Assembly: GCA_963664325.2 (NCBI GenBank)
Contig: CAXXDQ010000007.1
Span: forward strand, 288,001 to 352,000
DNA length: 64,000 nucleotides
From: Desulfomonilia bacterium
GTDB lineage: Bacteria; Desulfobacterota; Desulfomonilia; UBA1062
Reading direction: 5' to 3'
A program made the position numbers and the translations under genes. The first letter of the stretch is position 1. Each line of letters starts with the position of its first letter. Under the pieces are notes generated by a model that saw nothing but the letters and a program-made list of their open reading frames with translations, was not told the origin of the DNA and made no database searches. Of the stretch, positions 53,904 to 58,950 are shown one piece after another.

Positions 53904-54140
53904 ATGGCAAAAGTTGTATTCAATGTTCAGGACCAGTTTTTAAATCAGGCACGCAAGGAAAGAGTGTCCATCGTGATAACGCTTCTTGATAACGTAAAAA
54001 TGGAAGGGCATGTAAAAAGCTTCGACCCGTTCTGCATACTTCTGCAGACAGATAAGCCAGTCCTGATTTACAAGCACGCAGTAGCAAGCATCGAGCCGCT
54101 TGAGGTGAATTCCAAGTTAAAGGATTTCCTGGCAGGATGA
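53904..54140 (+). CDS. hfq: RNA chaperone Hfq
   Basis: NVQDQFLN..RKE, SFD, LIYKHAV; AAGGAG RBS. Confidence 0.9.
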   Translation: MAKVVFNVQDQFLNQARKERVSIVITLLDNVKMEGHVKSFDPFCILLQTDKPVLIYKHAVASIEPLEVNSKLKDFLAG

Positions 54141-55228
54141 GCTTGCCAAATGGTTTGAGGGCGGCCGTTATTCTGGCCGCCAGCCTGTTAATATCCTTAC
54201 CAGCCTACCCTGCTGAAACAACCCTGACCTCACAAGGCACGGGTATAATCAACAGTCCGAATATTCAGAAGGCGGAAGAGGCGGCAAAACAGGACGCATA
54301 CACAAAGGCCCTGACGCAATATGTTCTTAAACTCGTCCCTCAAAGCTCGGCTTACGCCGTTCTGAACAAGCTTCCGGGGCTTATAACCGAGCGCGGCATG
54401 CAGGATGCCACGGTAATAAGACTTGTTTCAAAAAATCAGCAGCTGAATTTTGTCTATGCCACCTATGAATTCACCGTGAAAGATGACTTCCTTAAGCAAT
54501 GGATTTCAACAAACAGGTTTGATGTGGCGGCCGAATTCAGACCAAGGGTCATGCTTGCCGTGACAACAACGGCACCGGGAGAAAGCAGCCGCGAATGGTG
54601 GAACTCTCCCGGGAAAAAGAAATATTCGGGTTTTGAATCAAAACTCGCATCCGAGCTGGCCCAATGGGGTGAAAATATTTTTACCGAGGCCCCCGAATCA
54701 AGGGCCGGAGGGGTAGAGGCCATAACAATAGCATCATTGTTCAAGGCCGACCTGCTTTTATCCGGCAGCATACGGATTCAGCCTCTGGGCGGTACTATGA
54801 ATCAATGCACATTGAAATTGAACCTTGTTACAGTACCGGGCAAGGCGGTAATAGGCTCATGGAATCTCTCAAAAAAGGCGGAACTGCCTGTCAAGGACAT
54901 GTACGGCCTTGTAATTTCATCCATCCTTGACGAACTCAGACAAAAGATAGACCAGAAGATAACAACAGCATCGATCCCTTCATTCGAAACAACAATCTGC
55001 ATCGATAATATAAAAAATCATGAATCGTATCAGAAGGTTTATGACGCCGTTGCCTCGACTAATGGCGTACTCGAGATTCAGATAAGCAGCATATACTCCC
55101 ATTCCATCTGCCACAGGGCAAAAATCAGGGGCACCCTTGATGAAATAATGCAGAACTTCAAAAGCAAAAACATCCCCGGTGTAGATATCCAGATAAAAGA
55201 CGATTCCGCCCGGCTTGTAATCGAGTAG
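54137..55228 (+). CDS. Secreted hypothetical protein
   Basis: Signal peptide; ATGA overlap with hfq. Confidence 0.7.
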   Translation: MSLPNGLRAAVILAASLLISLPAYPAETTLTSQGTGIINSPNIQKAEEAAKQDAYTKALTQYVLKLVPQSSAYAVLNKLPGLITERGMQDATVIRLVSKNQQLNFVYATYEFTVKDDFLKQWISTNRFDVAAEFRPRVMLAVTTTAPGESSREWWNSPGKKKYSGFESKLASELAQWGENIFTEAPESRAGGVEAITIASLFKADLLLSGSIRIQPLGGTMNQCTLKLNLVTVPGKAVIGSWNLSKKAELPVKDMYGLVISSILDELRQKIDQKITTASIPSFETTICIDNIKNHESYQKVYDAVASTNGVLEIQISSIYSHSICHRAKIRGTLDEIMQNFKSKNIPGVDIQIKDDSARLVIE

Positions 55229-55433
55229 AAAAACCATATTCTTTTAAGCCTGTTGTATAGATAACCTGCCATCACCTATATTCTTGCTGGGTTTGCTTTC
55301 AGTGCATATCTGCGGCAGCGATATATGATTTATAAACTGTCTGAAAATGAAGATATCATCAAGTAATTTTGATAACTATTGCAGGATCCATGTAGTATCC
55401 TGAAGTATTCATTGTTGCAGGCGACATGGTTAG

Positions 55434-55562
55434 TCATATTATCATGAACGTCCCCAAGTCACACCACCAAGTCACACCACATGCCAGACGCTGCTCCAGT
55501 GATGCTTTTGGTGGCATTCTGTTTTCTTTATGCCAGTCTTTGTTTAGTTTGGAATTCTTCAT
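55434..55562 (-). pseudogene. Small ORF coupled to the CMD gene, apparently truncated by the 13-bp duplication
   Basis: TAATG overlap; MKNSKLNKDWHKENRMPPKASLEQRLA then runs into the repeat. Confidence 0.4.
55454..55479. repeat. 13-bp perfect tandem duplication
   Basis: CCAAGTCACACCA x2, preceded by GAACGTCC. Confidence 0.85.
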
Positions 55563-55894
55563 TATGGGCCTTTTGGGGAATCATAAGCCTTGATTGCTGC
55601 CGGCAGAGAGCGAGTGACAATGTTGCCTGCAGCGGGGAGACCTAACAAAACCGCACTGATGACTTCTTCTCGTGATGCTCCTACCTCTCTTGCCTGCATG
55701 ACATGGAAGGGAATACCACTGTCGAGACCTAATACTGCAAGGACGGCAATGTACCCAAGGTATTCTGTCTTCTTGTCCAGTGCACAGGCTTCATCGAGGT
55801 TCTTCGCTGCAGTCATCCATGCCTTAGCGTGTTTAGGTGCTTCCATCATGAATAACTGAAAGGCATTGCTCATTAGTTCTTGATTGTCGGACAA
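55562..55894 (-). CDS. Carboxymuconolactone decarboxylase (AhpD-like) family protein; integron cassette gene
   Basis: ALDKKTEYLGYIAVLA..GIPFHV..GASREE; AGGAG + TTG start just after the attC R' box. Confidence 0.8.
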   Translation of the reverse strand: MSDNQELMSNAFQLFMMEAPKHAKAWMTAAKNLDEACALDKKTEYLGYIAVLAVLGLDSGIPFHVMQAREVGASREEVISAVLLGLPAAGNIVTRSLPAAIKAYDSPKGP

Positions 55895-55912
55895 ATTTCT
55901 CTCCTTTCTGGT

Positions 55913-55976
55913 CCCCAACGCCCCGGTTCAGCGGCGGGCCGCGCAGCGGACCGTCCGCTGCAACCGGTTGTTAGGT
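55913..55976 (-). mobile_element. Integron attC site
   Basis: R'' ACCTAAC, spacer AACCG, L'' GTTGCAGC, central palindrome, L' GCTGAAC, R' GTTGGGG; 6 nt after the TIR gene stop. Confidence 0.9.
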
Positions 55977-55982
55977 CGCCGG

Positions 55983-57395
55983 TCATTTGTCCCACGACAC
56001 CCATGATTGAGCACCATCGCCCTGATCAAAGTTCGGCATCTTGAAAAACTCCCGCAGCTCCGGCATGTCACGGAAGATCTGCGGGAGGTCGTTGCCTTCG
56101 TCAGCCGCAAGTACCTGGTTAACGAAGAGCTGGAGACGGTTCTCAGGTTTATTGGAGAGCCCGCACAGTCCTCCAATGGCTTTGGCCAAATCCTCGATGG
56201 CGTGCTCGAGACTGCGGCGACCACTCCCCGCCTTGTCGGCTTCTTCCCCGTACGTCCGACGGACATGCAGAAGCGCCCTTAGCGAGTGGATGCTCTTCTC
56301 GACAACATGCCTGTTCTCCTCCGGTGAGCCTGCAGGGAAAGGAGCTTCAAGGTGCCGGCCAAGAGCGCGTGAGAATTCAGCGGCAGCCTGCGAGACGTTA
56401 CCGGACCGAAGATCAATGTACTTGACGTCGCGTAGCACCGGCGGGAGATCAACGTCATCGAGCAGAATCGGAATTACTATCGGCCCCTTGCCGTGCGCGG
56501 AGAGTCTCTCTGCCGTGACGATGCTCAACTCCTGCAGCACCCACCGACTTCGGACCGACGCTTCCGACATGAAGAACGCTAGACACTCGGCCGAGCGAAG
56601 GCCATGTGAGATTGTCTCCAGCAGGCTATCACCTGGCGAGATGCGTTCCTCGTCCATCCACACCTCGACACCGTGGGATCGGATCGCGTCGGCAAACGGG
56701 CGGATCCGTCCTTTGTCGGTATGTGTATGACTGAAAAACACGAGCGGATGTCGTTTGCCTTCCGACCTCGCAAGCCGATCAACAGCCCGCCGTATCTCCG
56801 CAGATAGCAAGGCTTCGTCGATCCCCTGCTTCAACGCCGAGGTGACAATGTCATCGAGGTGATCGAGCACTGGTCGAGGCTCGGGCAGGTGCTGCTCGGC
56901 CTGCAGCCTGGCGGCCTCCTGAAGGTCCTGGACCGTGCGGGAGAGGTCGGCCACGACGCCAACAGCAAGGTCGTCAGGTGCCTCAAACGGGGCACACGTA
57001 TGGCGTTCTCGAAGAGTGACCTTCAGCCGCTCCAAGGCACGAATACCATCGGGATCGCGCTCGACGTGCCGCGGCAAGACCGGGACGTCATCTCCTCGAA
57101 TGTAGATCAAGCAGGGTTTCCGGAGGCGATGGCCCTCTTGGTACTCAGACTCGGTGTAGGAGATCTTCTGGCCCGGTACAAAGGTGCCGTATCGGTGCCC
57201 GACCACGACGACCAGGATGTCGCTCTTGCGCACTTCCTCGAGGCACGTCTCCAAAGGCCTGCCCTCTCGCGCACCGAAGAACTCCATAGCGTCGTGCTGC
57301 AACTGGAGGCGCCTTACGGCAGCAAGCACCGCCTCGCGTTCGGGCCCCAGGTCTGCCTGAGTGCTACAAAGGAACACTGTCAGCGTTTGTGCCAT
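55983..57395 (-). CDS. DUF4062 + TIR domain protein (integron cassette)
   Basis: N-term VFLCSTQADL..ER..ME.F..CLEEV..SD..VGHRYG..SYTESEY; TIR VFFSH..VWMDE..PGD..S..SRWVLQEL..IPILL. Confidence 0.85.
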   Translation of the reverse strand: MAQTLTVFLCSTQADLGPEREAVLAAVRRLQLQHDAMEFFGAREGRPLETCLEEVRKSDILVVVVGHRYGTFVPGQKISYTESEYQEGHRLRKPCLIYIRGDDVPVLPRHVERDPDGIRALERLKVTLRERHTCAPFEAPDDLAVGVVADLSRTVQDLQEAARLQAEQHLPEPRPVLDHLDDIVTSALKQGIDEALLSAEIRRAVDRLARSEGKRHPLVFFSHTHTDKGRIRPFADAIRSHGVEVWMDEERISPGDSLLETISHGLRSAECLAFFMSEASVRSRWVLQELSIVTAERLSAHGKGPIVIPILLDDVDLPPVLRDVKYIDLRSGNVSQAAAEFSRALGRHLEAPFPAGSPEENRHVVEKSIHSLRALLHVRRTYGEEADKAGSGRRSLEHAIEDLAKAIGGLCGLSNKPENRLQLFVNQVLAADEGNDLPQIFRDMPELREFFKMPNFDQGDGAQSWVSWDK

Positions 57396-57408
57396 GTCTC
57401 TTCCTTCG

Positions 57409-57497
57409 ACTTAACGGCGAGTTGAGCGGTTTGGAATCGGGCTGGCGAGCTTGCTCGCCAAGTCCGAGGACGAATGTGCTCGAACGATTTGTTCGGG
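57409..57497 (-). mobile_element. Integron attC site
   Basis: R'' CCCGAAC, spacer AAATC, L'' GTTCGAGC, central GGCGAGCAAGCTCGCC hairpin, L' GCTCAAC, R' GTTAAGT. Confidence 0.85.
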
Positions 57498-57553
57498 CGT
57501 GCGAATCAGCACGCATCGGAACAAATCGGGCGAGTGCGTCCGTGCAACTCACC

Positions 57554-57580
57554 GTTCCGGCGCGTGCAGCGCGCCGGAAC
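57554..57580. repeat. Perfect 11-bp inverted repeat at the cassette-array boundary
   Basis: GTTCCGGCGCG-TGCAG-CGCGCCGGAAC. Confidence 0.85.
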
Positions 57581-57801
57581 AATTAATATACCCTGTGGTA
57601 CTTTTTAGTATTTTTTTGAAATTTTATACTATATGACGAAGAAATGGAAAGATAAATATGTCATAAAATCAATATAAACAAACTTTCACCAGCGAGTAAT
57701 TTTTGTTAATAACAAAAGGTGCTTGGCCTTGATCCATGACAAATTGATTATTTGTACCATTTCATGGCATGACACGGGATTTTTCTCTGGTTCGTTAAAA
57801 T

Positions 57802-58140
57802 TCATAACAGAATACCTCTATTAAAGAACAAGTCTTTAATTTGATTTTCTTCCATGTATTTGAACATTTTCTTTGCTGTTTTTGTCCCAATAGGGAAACC
57901 AAGCATTAATATGTAGAGATAGAACTTCAAGAGATAGAAACCCCAAATTTTTCTTATGATAATACCAACTCCAGTTAAAAGATGCCAAGCAACCATGCAT
58001 ATAAAAAAAACTTTGAATGGTGACACAAAGTTAGGACTATTGTGCATCAGGAAATAAATAAATACACCAGCCGCACCAATAAAAAGCAAAGAGATCCCGA
58101 AAGTTTGAATTGGTTTAAACTTTGTTAGATCGAAGATCAT
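57802..58140 (-). CDS. Small AT-rich hypothetical membrane protein
   Basis: Three hydrophobic segments; AAGGA RBS. Confidence 0.6.
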   Translation of the reverse strand: MIFDLTKFKPIQTFGISLLFIGAAGVFIYFLMHNSPNFVSPFKVFFICMVAWHLLTGVGIIIRKIWGFYLLKFYLYILMLGFPIGTKTAKKMFKYMEENQIKDLFFNRGILL

Positions 58141-58169
58141 ACGAAATCCTTTTACTGGTGTTGCCTTTT

Positions 58170-58200
58170 CTCACCACTCACAACTGACCACTCACCACTA
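58170..58200. repeat. Degenerate heptamer tandem repeat
   Basis: CTCACCA CTCACAA CTGACCA CTCACCA abutting the SDR stop codon. Confidence 0.7.
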
Positions 58201-58950
58201 GTTCCTGATCGTCATCCCTCCGTCAACCACCATCGAATGACCAGTTATAAACGATGAATCTTCAGAGGCAAGGAAAAGAGCGGCCCCTGCTATATCCTCA
58301 GGCCTGCCGAGGCGTTTGAGCGGCACGGCCTTTACCATCTTCTGTCTGTATTCGTCAGAGCTTATAAGAGGGGCCAGCATGTCGGTCTCGATGGGCCCAG
58401 GACAGATCGCGTTGACGGTGACCGAGAATTTTGCAAGTTCCATGGCATTGGCCATAGTAAGACCGATGACACCGGATTTCGTCACGCAGTAGACCGGAAG
58501 GAAGGCTGAACCGCGTATGCCCTCAACGGAAGACATGTTTATGATCCTGCCCCTGCCGCTTTTTTTCAGGTAAGGCACACACGCCCTTGTTACACGCATG
58601 ACCCCGGTCAGATTGACCCCGAATGCACGGTCAATCTCGGGGTCGGATATCTGCTCCATATAGCCTATGGTACCTGTTCCTGCGTTGTTCACGAGAACAT
58701 CTATGCCTCCCATGGTTTCTGCAGCCAATGCTGCAAGACGCCTGACATCATCCTCTTTTGAAACGTCGGCGATAGTGCCGGAGGCTTTCCCTCCGGATGC
58801 GTTTATCTGGTTAACGGTATTTTCAAGCCTCTCGGTGTTTATGTCAGAAATGAACACATGCGCCCCTTCCGATGCAAACCTTACAGCAATAGCCTTTCCA
58901 ATGCCTGATGCGGCGCCGGTTACAACTGCCTTGACTCCTGAAAGTTTCAT
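58198..58950 (-). CDS. SDR family oxidoreductase (FabG-like)
   Basis: TGAASGIG, NNAG, YCVTK, VDGG; ATG at 58950. Confidence 0.92.
   Translation of the reverse strand: MKLSGVKAVVTGAASGIGKAIAVRFASEGAHVFISDINTERLENTVNQINASGGKASGTIADVSKEDDVRRLAALAAETMGGIDVLVNNAGTGTIGYMEQISDPEIDRAFGVNLTGVMRVTRACVPYLKKSGRGRIINMSSVEGIRGSAFLPVYCVTKSGVIGLTMANAMELAKFSVTVNAICPGPIETDMLAPLISSDEYRQKMVKAVPLKRLGRPEDIAGAALFLASEDSSFITGHSMVVDGGMTIRN

What the first reader, a model, noticed from the sequence alone, without database searches (positions are those of the whole stretch)
55913..57497. attC-bounded cassette encoding a double TIR-like (DUF4062+TIR) protein: candidate undescribed anti-phage effector
Seen: a visibly GC-rich 470-aa ORF lies exactly between two attC sites. 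R' GTTAAGT is followed by an RBS and the ATG; the stop is 6 nt before R'' ACCTAAC, which complements R' at 6 of 7 positions, as expected for one mobile cassette. The protein joins an N-terminal DUF4062 domain (SYTESEY, Glu retained) to a TIR domain with the catalytic Glu intact (SRWVLQEL), followed by an unassigned helical C-terminal region of about 125 aa. Known: bacterial TIR domains are NADases or signal generators in Thoeris, CBASS, Pycsar and SPARTA, DUF4062 is a TIR/nucleoside-deoxyribosyltransferase-like effector fold, and integron cassettes are enriched in single-gene phage-defence functions. Inference: a stand-alone defence gene with two nucleotide-cleaving domains and a possible C-terminal sensor, with no NTPase or ThsA partner in the cassette.
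Basis: partly seen in the sequence, partly recalled or inferred. Interest (0 to 1): 0.8.

Follow-up and report, generated by a model that had tools for sequence, protein, structure and literature searches.

The report
Integron cassette encoding DUF4062–TIR protein
A foreign, GC-rich integron gene cassette sits in this chromosome and encodes one protein with two NAD-cleaving-type domains (DUF4062/NIR plus TIR), most likely a single-gene anti-phage suicide switch of a kind first described in 2026.

Summary
A 470-aa ORF (55,983-57,395, minus strand; 60% GC against 48% for the genome) carries DUF4062 (residues 7-86) and TIR_2 (219-340), with both putative catalytic Glu residues conserved. It ends 6 nt before a canonical attC (55,976-55,913). 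That attC scores 60.8 bits on a model built from attCs, five of them beside a real integron integrase in a same-family genome.

The upstream "attC" belongs to a 165-nt ORF-less cassette. Both cassettes (1,661 nt) sit at G|TT of a 14-nt core that also lies beside all three intI genes found in relatives. This genome has no intI.

Relatives are often cassettes themselves: 9 of 23 genome loci and 2 of 8 metagenome loci have an adjacent attC. Others lie beside defence genes.

"Undescribed effector" is now only partly true. Three 2026 preprints show DUF4062 (NIR; Swarozyc, Evangelion, Vulcan, Vesta, Avs2) is an anti-phage NADase. Their text does not mention a DUF4062-TIR fusion or integrons; figures and supplements were not seen.

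Best reading: an autoinhibited, single-gene, NAD+-depleting abortive-infection protein carried on a mobile cassette. The function is inferred, not tested. It is a new variant of a known kind.

The parts
57580..57713 (-). AT-rich attI-like element (class 2). It ends in the core GGGTATATTAATTG, with the crossover G at 57,580.
   Evidence: Repeated in G000 (C4:902100, C6:96697, C7:1019313) and in G001:C116. No secondary structure: z -0.6 and 0 consensus pairs in 5 copies. The 14-mer GTATATTAATTGTT or a 1-2-nt variant lies beside all 3 intI loci of relatives, in divergent orientation.
57621..57650 (-). Promoter-like site TTTCCA-18-TAAAAT inside the attI-like element, reading towards the cassettes.
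   Evidence: 9 of 12 matches; 4 sites found in the region against 1.9 +/- 1.3 in shuffles, so the evidence is weak. The block is partly conserved in the 5 copies aligned.
57415..57579 (-). Cassette 1: ORF-less, 165 nt, from TTCCGG to the final G. It consists almost wholly of a branched attC-like hairpin (R'' CCGGAAC 57,560-57,554; R' GTTAAGT 57,415-57,409).
   Evidence: Folds at -56.8 kcal/mol, z -6.8, 0 shuffles as good. R'' is the exact complement of G+TTCCGG, its own first bases. It is 81% identical to G001:C116, where homology stops at the R' box and a different gene follows; there R''/R' carry a compensatory AAC/GTT to AAA/TTT change. Against: model R1 does not detect it.
55919..57414 (-). 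Cassette 2: the DUF4062-TIR cassette, 1,496 nt, from TTAAGT to the G of GTTGGGG.
   Evidence: The homologous cassette L092 (79% aa identity) starts GTTAGGT + RBS + ATG and ends ACCTAAC...GTTAGGC.
57396..57408 (-). Ribosome-binding region CGAAGGAAGAGAC before the ATG.
   Evidence: Read directly. Conserved in L092 and L093 as CGACAGGAGA....
55983..57395 (-). ORF of 470 aa, including the stop codon.
   Evidence: It has the same length as relatives P0003-P0007 at 78-83% identity.
56985..57395 (-). Residues 1-137: DUF4062/NIR TIR-like domain. Putative catalytic E84 at 57,144-57,146.
   Evidence: Pfam. Profile match to the KpSwz DUF4062 structure 10wc_A, E 1.1e-14. E84 aligns with the Ala of the E97A mutant chain. 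E84 kept in 45 of 45; mean pairwise identity 65%.
56751..56984 (-). Residues 138-215: long helices (stalk and linker).
   Evidence: Model helices 140-166, 177-189 and 194-211. The KpSwz profile match runs to residue 184. This is the most variable part: 26% identity over residues 167-215.
56346..56750 (-). Residues 216-350: canonical TIR domain. Putative catalytic E289 at 56,529-56,531.
   Evidence: Pfam TIR_2. PDB profile hits 7uxr_A E 1e-17 and AbTIR E 3e-16. Fold Z 17.2 to SPARTA TIR-APAZ (rmsd 2.5, 133 aligned) and Z 16.6 to AbTir (rmsd 2.2, 127 aligned). E289 kept in 43 of 45.
55986..56345 (-). Residues 351-470: helical tail of no known family, shared by about a dozen close relatives only.
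   Evidence: Model pLDDT 76. Best fold match Z 6.5 and none at Z 8 or more among 48,161 chains. The protein atlas gave no usable hit.
55913..55976 (-). attC of cassette 2: R'' ACCTAAC, imperfect hairpin, R' GTTGGGG. Crossover between G 55,919 and T 55,918.
   Evidence: 60.8 bits, E 6e-13. It is 81-83% identical to attCs in G024 and G033.
55562..55873 (-). Co-oriented CMD-family (AhpD-like) gene that followed the attI-like site before the insertion.
   Evidence: Pfam CMD, E 7e-11. Joining AATTG to TTGGGGACC... restores the sequence seen at the paralogous site C7:1019313, AATTGTTGGGG. No attC was found after it.

Best explanation
This is a horizontally acquired integron gene cassette (57,414-55,919, minus strand). 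Together with a 165-nt ORF-less cassette, it was inserted by an integron integrase at the G|TT of an attI-type core (GGGTATATTAATTG|TT) in a chromosome that now has no intI. It is probably transcribed from the promoter-like AT-rich element upstream. Its single gene encodes a stand-alone protein of the DUF4062/NIR defence kind. The N-terminal NIR domain (catalytic E84) is the conserved NAD+ hydrolase effector, as in Swarozyc, Evangelion, Vulcan and Avs2. The position that relatives fill with sensor modules (HEAT, TPR, NB-ARC, GAF) is filled here by a catalytically competent TIR domain (E289) plus a lineage-specific helical tail. Proposed mechanism: the protein is autoinhibited in uninfected cells. 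A phage cue, sensed through the TIR and tail half, drives self-assembly. Assembly opens the NIR active site, and probably the TIR site too. NAD+ is hydrolysed and the infected cell stops growing (abortive infection). Shown here: the cassette anatomy, the domains, the conserved Glu residues, and the integron and defence-island context of relatives. Inferred: NADase activity, the trigger, assembly, and anti-phage protection.
For: CASSETTE. The downstream attC scores 60.8 bits on a model built from 9 attCs, 5 of them from the array beside an IntI that scores 453 bits against a 265-bit cut-off. The boundaries fall at G|TT, and R'' matches the complement of the circular-form R' at 7 of 7 positions (cassette 1) and 6 of 7 (cassette 2). 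A homologous cassette, L092, has the same start and end. GC is 60.7% against 40-44% in the flanks. The sister species G003 has only 238 nt between the conserved flanks. The attI core 14-mer occurs 6 times in G000 against 1 for the reversed control, and beside 3 of 3 intI loci in relatives.

STAND-ALONE GENE. Three relatives (L047, L048, L054) have an attC hit on both sides of a single ORF, and 9 of 23 genome loci plus 2 of 8 metagenome loci have an adjacent attC on the gene's strand.

DEFENCE. DUF4062 is shown experimentally to be an anti-phage NADase that needs the conserved Glu (papers read). E84 aligns with the mutated E97 position of KpSwz. In 3 of 5 non-cassette loci examined, relatives are flanked by defence genes: CAP12/Pycsar-type TIR and bSEFIR; BrxC-like and PD-Lambda-2_B; an OLD/AriA/GajA-like ATPase. 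Other attI-like sites in this genome carry NACHT, Mrr, DUF4145, FRG and zinc-finger-TIR_2 genes.

NIR AS EFFECTOR. The NIR core is 65% identical across 45 relatives, against 42% for TIR and 26% for the linker. The same NIR subfamily (46-57% identity in 9 of the 10 proteins tested, 35% in the tenth, P0248) is fused elsewhere to HEAT/Arm, NB-ARC+TPR, GAF, TPR or beta-propeller repeats.
Against: No activity was measured. No PADLOC or NCBIfam model matches the whole protein: the best are PDC-S66, E 6e-14, over the TIR part only, and Retron_TIR at 59.5 bits against a 600-bit cut-off. The upstream attC is not recognised by my narrow attC model, and the genome has no intI, so the insertion route is reconstructed, not observed. 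No empty-site variant was seen in contigs of the runs that hold the locus. A protein with two effector-type domains and, in most relatives, no obvious sensor does not fit the usual effector-plus-sensor scheme. 14 of 23 genome loci and 6 of 8 metagenome loci gave no attC hit. In 2 of 5 non-cassette loci the neighbours were not defence genes.
Confidence: 0.6

Rival explanations
1. One-polypeptide Thoeris-like relay. The TIR domain is the sensor and signal generator, like ThsB. On infection it makes a cyclic or modified ADP-ribose signal from NAD+, and that signal switches on the NIR NADase in the same protein or oligomer.
For: The TIR is of the AbTir/ThsB-like bacterial type with its Glu kept in 43 of 45 relatives. 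There are weak ThsB hits: PADLOC ThsB1 E 4e-8, Pfam ThsB_TIR 18.3 bits. About three quarters of relatives are only about 350 aa with no further domain, so sensing must lie in NIR or TIR. The TIR sits where sensors sit in relatives.
Against: No signal-binding domain (SLOG, Macro, SAVED, CARF) was found. ThsB_TIR is below its cut-off (21.2 bits). The characterised DUF4062 systems I read about are triggered by proteins or infection products, not by nucleotide second messengers.
Confidence: 0.15
2. Defence protein in which the TIR is only a scaffold. TIR-TIR contacts nucleate the assembly, and NIR alone is the NADase.
For: TIR domains form filaments and higher-order assemblies in solved structures matched here: MAL, MyD88, AbTir, Cat1. 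The TIR is less conserved than NIR, 42% against 65%.
Against: The catalytic Glu and the S..W...E motif are retained in nearly all relatives (43 of 45). A pure scaffold would not need them.
Confidence: 0.15
3. Not a defence gene. It would be a cassette-borne NAD-consuming toxin or regulator with another role, such as array stabilisation, interbacterial antagonism or metabolic control.
For: Function is untested. Integron arrays also hold addiction modules (recalled, not from a call). Some relatives carry AsnC-type ligand-binding or HTH_8 tails (8 and 3 of the 120 listed), which hints at small-molecule or DNA-linked regulation.
Against: There is no antitoxin or immunity ORF in the cassette, and Pfam found no secretion-related domain (no dedicated signal-peptide search was run). 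Every DUF4062 protein tested in the three preprints acted in phage defence. Relatives have defence-gene neighbours.
Confidence: 0.08
4. The GC-rich island is not an IntI-made insertion. It would have arrived by another route (transposon remnant or homologous recombination of a larger accessory segment), and the flanking hairpins only look like attCs.
For: No intI in the genome. The upstream element is not detected by model R1. The whole 55,273-58,184 region is accessory in the genus.
Against: The downstream site is of the same attC type as those beside a real IntI. The junctions lie at G|TT, and joining the flanks restores a paralogous site. No transposase or terminal inverted repeats were found around the island. 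Relatives are cassettes in arrays.
Confidence: 0.05

Closest known systems
Swarozyc (KpSwz), single-gene DUF4062 NADase defence (bioRxiv 10.64898/2026.05.01.722283; PDB 10wc/11cq/11cv)
   Same: N-terminal DUF4062 TIR-like domain followed by helical stalk. The profile match covers query residues 3-184 and chain residues 4-182, E 1.1e-14. The catalytic Glu position is shared. Both are single genes and spread horizontally.
   Different: The KpSwz auxiliary domain (chain residues about 183-326) is not matched. Here the C-terminal half is a TIR_2 domain plus a helical tail. Single-sequence similarity is low (E 9e-4). Nothing here tests portal sensing.
Vulcan, Vesta, Avs2-NIR (bioRxiv 10.64898/2026.09.04.749371) and Evangelion (bioRxiv 10.64898/2026.06.25.731849)
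   Same: NIR/DUF4062 as an N-terminal effector with an E-Y catalytic motif, joined to a variable C-terminal region. Close NIR relatives of this protein are fused to HEAT/Arm (Vulcan-like) and to NB-ARC+TPR (NLR/Avs-like).
   Different: The protein itself has no HEAT repeats, STAND NTPase or alkaline-phosphatase partner. S. aureus plasmid DUF4062 genes, which I take to be the Evangelion lineage, match only residues 7-136 at 26.9%. 0 of 359 plasmid records with a match cover 80% or more of the query.
Bacterial TIR NADases: AbTir, SPARTA TIR-APAZ, ThsB of Thoeris, Cat1
   Same: Residues 216-350 have the TIR fold (Z 16-17), sequence motifs and the Glu.
   Different: No Argonaute, ThsA, CARF or other partner is present. 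The TIR is C-terminal to a second, different NADase-type domain.
Integron cassettes that encode phage defence (bioRxiv 10.1101/2024.07.02.601686, abstract and word search; 10.1101/2024.07.02.601719, listing only) and cassettes outside integrons (attG/SALIN, bioRxiv 10.1101/2022.09.11.507474, abstract)
   Same: A compact single-gene candidate defence function within one attC-bounded cassette, in a genome without a neighbouring intI.
   Different: The insertion site is not an arbitrary attG. It carries the attI core found beside intI in relatives. The words TIR, DUF4062, NADase and Thoeris do not occur in the main text of the 2024 biobank preprint.

Membership tests
Integron gene cassette | 3' attC: an imperfect palindrome with R'' RYYYAAC and R' GTTRRRY | tested here: met
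   ACCTAAC...GTTGGGG, 64 nt. Hairpin z -4.2. 60.8 bits, E 6e-13 on model R1. Aligns with 5 attCs beside a real IntI.
Integron gene cassette | One promoterless ORF facing the attC; boundaries at G|TT; cassette start complementary to its own R'' | tested here: met
   6 of 7 positions complementary. The homologous cassette L092 shares both boundaries.
Complete integron | intI gene next to attI and the array | tested here: not met
   No TIGR02249 match over the cut-off in G000 (best 84 bits against 265). tblastn with the G024 IntI finds only Xer-like genes at 21-26% identity. The genome is 95.6% complete, so a copy in the unassembled part is not excluded.
attI site | Double-stranded, unstructured site with a GTT core beside intI | tested here: inconclusive
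   The 14-mer is identical to the one 531 nt from the G001 intI and 12 of 14 identical to the one beside the G024 IntI. No structure. But there is no intI here, and the flanking 130 nt (class 2) differ from the intI-adjacent class 1.
DUF4062 / NIR NADase domain | Pfam PF13271 over its cut-off and the conserved catalytic Glu (E-Y motif) | tested here: met
   78.7 bits against 24.7. E84-Y85 invariant in 45 of 45. Aligns with KpSwz position 97.
DUF4062 / NIR NADase domain | NAD+ hydrolysis to ADPR and nicotinamide | not testable with these tools
   Needs an enzyme assay.
TIR NADase | TIR fold, and Glu in the S..W...E motif | tested here: met
   TIR_2 96.5 bits. Z 17.2 and 16.6. E289 in 43 of 45. 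It aligns with the Glu of the AbTIR YEL motif. That this AbTIR Glu is the catalytic one is recalled, not from a call.
Swarozyc | DUF4062 plus the Swz-type auxiliary domain | tested here: not met
   The profile match stops at chain residue 182 of 326.
Vulcan | NIR fused to HEAT repeats | tested here: not met
   No HEAT or Arm hit in the protein. Such hits do occur in relative P0181.
Vesta | Small NIR protein in an operon with an alkaline phosphatase | tested here: not met
   Single-ORF cassette. The next gene is CMD family.
Avs / NLR-like | Central STAND NTPase | tested here: not met
   No NTPase domain.
Thoeris | ThsB TIR with a ThsA (SIR2 or Macro, SLOG) partner | tested here: not met
   No partner in the cassette. 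ThsB_TIR scores 18.3 bits, below the 21.2 cut-off. ThcB4 scores 19.4 against 220.
Evangelion | Single gene with a DUF4062 core plus a required auxiliary region, in the Eva lineages of the authors' tree | tested here: inconclusive
   The architecture fits the loose definition. Only 26.9% identity over residues 7-136 to S. aureus plasmid DUF4062 genes.
PADLOC PDC-S66 | Full-length match to the candidate family model | tested here: not met
   Only profile positions 145-240 of 282 match residues 213-310.

The most novel reading that the evidence does not exclude
The DUF4062-TIR tandem is a self-contained two-enzyme immune relay. The TIR half senses infection and converts NAD+ into a signalling nucleotide, and that nucleotide (or TIR filament formation) switches on the NIR half. 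This would amount to a Thoeris-like pathway compressed into one roughly 350-aa core, small enough for an integron cassette. In this genus such cassettes would be stocked at several orphan attI sites served in trans by an integrase.
Probability: 0.12. Interest if true: 0.75.

Novelty: new variant of a known kind. Interest (0 to 1): 0.5.

Why it matters
DUF4062/NIR was recognised as an immune NADase only in 2026. This family joins it directly to a second, canonical NADase or signalling fold (TIR), often with no separate sensor domain. That raises the question of how such a protein senses phage and why it needs two NAD-acting sites.

The family is sizeable. 30 of the 150 best 50%-identity representatives span both domains. 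It is spread over many phyla and repeatedly packaged as an integron cassette, so it is a cheap, portable candidate for experimental defence screens.

The locus is also a clean natural example of cassettes at an attI-type site in a genome without an integrase. It is one of about six such sites in this genome, several of which hold defence-like genes.

Tried and rejected
RNA families: Rfam on 55,000-58,500, both strands, E up to 1, gave no match, so the flanking hairpins are not a known RNA family.

AT-rich element as an AT-rich attC: rejected. There is no long-range pairing (z -0.6 and -0.4) and 0 consensus pairs in 5 copies.

Region after the CMD gene (55,230-55,570) as an attC: no structure (z 0.38) and no R1 hit.

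Model R1 with filters off on 57,300-57,750: the best hit was 5.4 bits. The upstream attC therefore rests on other evidence. R1 is narrow, being built from one attC type.

C-terminal tail: no Pfam, NCBIfam or PADLOC family. The protein atlas gave no usable hit. The wide fold search gave a best Z of 6.5, which is noise level for helical bundles.

PHROGs: only unnamed families matched, over the separate domains.

Whole-model Foldseek matches to two-Rossmann-domain proteins (GKRP, acetyl-CoA synthetase; rmsd 11-22) were discarded as domain-pair artefacts.

Complex prediction, two copies of residues 1-215: no verdict.

Sequencing runs: no RNA holder is listed. Contigs of X1 and X3, probably the source sample, span the locus with no joint. 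X6 laid no reads, so it is no test. X5 holds only short pieces. Hence there is no evidence on expression or on an empty-site allele.

Supplementary files and figures of the three DUF4062 preprints could not be seen. Fig. S1D/E of 10.64898/2026.05.01.722283 lists auxiliary enzymatic domains and may already show a DUF4062-TIR architecture.

Basis for 'not in print': the paper search for 'DUF4062' found 15 papers and listed 12. Word searches for TIR fusion, tandem and integron in the three preprints found nothing relevant.

Rows left out: 27 of the 50 genome loci (L063, L065-L069, L071-L091) matched only the N-terminal domain and were not searched for attCs.
Full report
THE OBSERVATION

The window is G000:C7:288001-352000. 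A 470-aa ORF lies on the minus strand at 55,983-57,395. It sits in a sharply bounded GC-rich island: 60.7% GC over 55,919-57,579, against 43.6% and 40.2% in the 1-kb flanks and 46-50% for the nine contigs.

Pfam gives DUF4062 at residues 7-86 (78.7 bits, cut-off 24.7) and TIR_2 at 219-340 (96.5 bits, cut-off 28).
- GTTAAGT, then an RBS, then the ATG;
- the stop 6 nt before ACCTAAC;
- 6 of 7 complementarity between ACCTAAC and GTTAAGT.

THE DOWNSTREAM attC IS GENUINE

On the gene's strand, 55,976-55,913 reads ACCTAAC ... GTTGGGG and folds into an imperfect hairpin (z -4.2). A same-family genome, G024, has an integron integrase well over the NCBIfam cut-off (453 against 265 bits). The array next to it holds attCs of the same build.

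I aligned five of those attCs, three further copies from G024 and G033, and the window's site, and built covariance model R1 from the alignment. The window's site scores 60.8 bits (E 6e-13). Because it was part of the training set, the independent support is its visible likeness to the IntI-adjacent sites. Further support comes from R1 finding new sites elsewhere, as described below.

THE UPSTREAM SIDE IS AN ORF-LESS CASSETTE AT AN attI-TYPE SITE

Upstream of GTTAAGT lies a 152-nt branched hairpin (57,560-57,409; the 186-nt stretch 57,405-57,590 that contains it folds at -56.8 kcal/mol, z -6.8). Its closing arms are CCGGAAC-GGTGAGTTG and CAACTCGCC-GTTAAGT. R1 does not detect it (5.4 bits), so I rely on four other observations.

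1. It is preceded by AATTG|TTCCGG. G+TTCCGG is the exact complement of its own R'' CCGGAAC, as cassette circularisation requires.
2. A copy 81% identical in the sister species G001 (contig C116) is followed by a different gene, a methyltransferase, and homology stops at the R' box.
3. In that copy R''/R' read AAA/TTT instead of AAC/GTT. This is a compensatory change that keeps the pair.
4. Joining AATTG to the TTGGGG left after the TIR cassette recreates AATTGTTGGGG, the sequence of a paralogous site at C7:1019313.

The island therefore consists of two cassettes: 165 nt without an ORF, and 1,496 nt with the gene. They are inserted at one G|TT.

The target is not an arbitrary site. The 14-mer GTATATTAATTGTT, or a 1-2-nt variant, lies divergently beside all three intI loci found in relatives:
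- 173 nt from the full G024 intI;
- 172 nt from a degraded G024 intI;
- 531 nt from the partial G001 intI.

It occurs 6 times in G000 (reversed control 1) and 10 times in G001 (control 0). The surrounding AT-rich element has no secondary structure, as expected of an attI rather than an attC. It contains a weak promoter-like site that reads into the cassettes.

G000 itself has no intI. The sister species G003 has only 238 nt between the conserved flanks, so the whole 55,273-58,184 segment is accessory.

THE PROTEIN

A database search returned 152 relatives, of which 120 were listed, and all 120 carry both Pfam domains. Twelve of them cover 97% or more of the query, at 49-88% identity. Most of the others cover only the first 350 residues or so and are 350-450 aa long. 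Some have other tails: an AsnC-type ligand-binding domain in 8 and HTH_8 in 3 of the 120.

An exhaustive HMMER scan found 146 clusters at E below 1e-30. Thirty of the 150 best representatives align over 300 or more residues spanning both domains. Many more match only residues 1-160, at 50-60% identity. Ten such longer proteins were tested:
- DUF4062 fused to HEAT/Arm in 1;
- NB-ARC, one of them with TPR as well, in 2;
- GAF in 1;
- TPR in 2;
- beta-propeller repeats in 1;
- no other recognised domain in 3.

In a 45-sequence alignment, the NIR core is 65% identical on average, the TIR 42% and the linker 26%. E84 is invariant (45 of 45) and E289 nearly so (43 of 45).

Against solved structures, a profile of the family hits the KpSwz DUF4062 structure (10wc_A, E 1.1e-14, query residues 3-184). 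Its TIR part hits 7uxr_A, AbTIR, Cat1 and PdTIR (E 1e-17 to 5e-14). E84 aligns with the Ala of the deposited chain, which the paper describes as the E97A mutant.

The AlphaFold2 model has pLDDT 78 and pTM 0.55. Its residues 217-351 superpose on SPARTA TIR-APAZ (Z 17.2, rmsd 2.5, 133 residues) and on AbTir (Z 16.6, rmsd 2.2, 127 residues).

The tail, residues 351-470, is a small helical bundle with no informative match. The best Z is 6.5 and none of 48,161 chains reaches Z 8.

CONTEXT OF RELATIVES

I took the 23 of 50 genome loci whose match spans both domains. R1 finds an attC on the gene's strand within 75 nt of the gene in 9 of them. In 3 of these (L047, L048, L054) a hit lies on both sides of a single ORF. 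Of the 33 hits at E up to 1, 32 are on the gene's strand.

Of 8 metagenome loci, 2 have an attC 5-6 nt after the stop. L092 (79% aa identity) is a whole cassette with the same start (GTTAGGT, RBS, ATG) and end (ACCTAAC ... GTTAGGC). In L093 (78% identity) both ends have decayed.

Hosts range over Desulfobacterota-type lineages, Chloroflexota, Cytophagia, Gemmatimonadota, Gamma-, Beta- and Alphaproteobacteria, Acidobacteriota and Brocadiaceae.

I examined five loci, three without any attC hit and two with one (L055, which has an upstream attC hit 9 nt from the gene, and L093, with a weak, decayed one), two neighbours each. Three have defence-type neighbours:
- L093: a CAP12/Pycsar-type TIR protein and a bSEFIR protein;
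- L044: a BrxC-like protein and PD-Lambda-2_B;
- L043: an OLD/AriA/GajA-like ATPase.

The other two have none (L049; L055 has an IS110 transposase).

In G000, R1 finds 8 further sites at E up to 1. Genes at the other attI-like sites include NACHT, Mrr_cat, DUF4145, FRG and a zinc-finger-TIR_2 protein.

WHAT IS KNOWN

Three 2026 preprints show that DUF4062 is a TIR-like NADase used in phage defence.
- Swarozyc is a single protein, activated by the phage portal, and E97 is essential.
- NIR acts in Avs2, Vulcan (NIR plus HEAT) and Vesta (NIR plus alkaline phosphatase), all Glu-dependent with NAD+ depletion and abortive infection.
- Evangelion is a single gene on S. aureus plasmids, with a DUF4062 core plus an auxiliary region and an E-Y catalytic region.

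None mentions a fusion to a TIR domain, or integrons, in the text I could search.

That integron cassettes often encode compact defence systems is stated in the abstract of 10.1101/2024.07.02.601686. That IntI can insert cassettes outside integrons is stated in the abstract of 10.1101/2022.09.11.507474.

In the plasmid collection, 359 records match one domain or the other, and none covers 80% of the protein.

MECHANISM

Shown:
- a mobile single-ORF cassette;
- two TIR-superfamily domains with conserved Glu residues;
- the NIR half conserved and recombined with many sensor-type modules in relatives;
- integron and defence-island contexts.

Inferred:
- NIR is the NAD+ hydrolase effector;
- the TIR-plus-tail half takes the place of the sensor or auxiliary region and is probably catalytic as well;
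- activation is by phage-induced assembly;
- the outcome is NAD+ depletion and growth arrest.

I put this at about 0.6. The rest is shared among a cis Thoeris-like relay, a scaffold-only TIR, a non-defence role and a non-integron origin.

VERDICT

What remains new is the DUF4062-TIR tandem family, its frequent carriage as an integron cassette, and its presence here at one of several intI-less attI-type sites. It is a new variant of a known kind, with interest 0.5.

Noticed in passing
G000 C3:697861-697874, C5:61597-61610, C4:902098-902111, C6:~96697, C7:1019311-1019324, and window 57,578-57,591: About six attI-core sites (GTATATTAATTGTT) lie in a genome with no intI. Each is followed by cassette-like genes, and some by R1 attC hits. 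Two classes of upstream sequence exist. Class 1 (C3, C5) is homologous to the intI-attI spacer of G001:C83. Class 2 (the window, C4, C6, C7) shares only the core. G001 has 10 copies.
   Followed up: partly
L103 (G000:C3:688000-700000), L104 (G000:C5:59000-75000), L100 (G000:C4:900500-904500): Genes behind the other attI-like sites look defence-related: NACHT NTPase (407 aa), Mrr_cat fragment (110 aa), DUF4145 (227 aa), FRG-domain protein (332 aa), and a 251-aa DnaJ-type zinc finger plus TIR_2 protein that follows an attC hit at C4:902617-902679.
   Followed up: partly
L019 3898-4070 (G001:C116): The homologue of the ORF-less cassette has R''/R' changed together from AAC/GTT to AAA/TTT. The pair is kept but the canonical cleavage triplet is lost. 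It is followed by methyltransferase and DUF7000 genes.
   Followed up: partly
window 55,262-55,460: A roughly 200-nt repeat with copies at G000:C4:122845-123044 (97-98%) and C4:170532-170723 (88%). It shows no structure, and contigs of the source runs break here. Its nature is unknown (possibly a MITE).
   Followed up: no
window 57,707-57,779: A roughly 70-nt element repeated at several places in G000 (C5 x3, C3, C4), G002 and G003 at 82-97% identity. It has no Rfam match and its function is unknown.
   Followed up: no
L093 1558-7142: In a 13.5-kb metagenome contig the 78%-identical homologue sits between a 753-aa CAP12/Pycsar-type TIR protein (PDC-S35, E 5e-56) and a 501-aa bSEFIR protein (E 7e-63). 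That makes three TIR-superfamily genes in a row, with the homologue's attC decayed.
   Followed up: partly
window 57,802-58,140 (-) and 54,137-55,228 (+): A 112-aa predicted membrane ORF with no family lies between the SDR gene and the attI-like element. A 363-aa protein of no Pfam family, with a hydrophobic N-terminus (possibly a signal peptide), lies on the other side. Both were left uncharacterised.
   Followed up: no
L024 (G002:C21:59300-64800): The orthologous locus in sister species G002 holds about 5 kb of different genes and one weak R1 attC hit (1891-1965, 21.3 bits). The site may therefore be a variable hotspot in the genus.
   Followed up: partly
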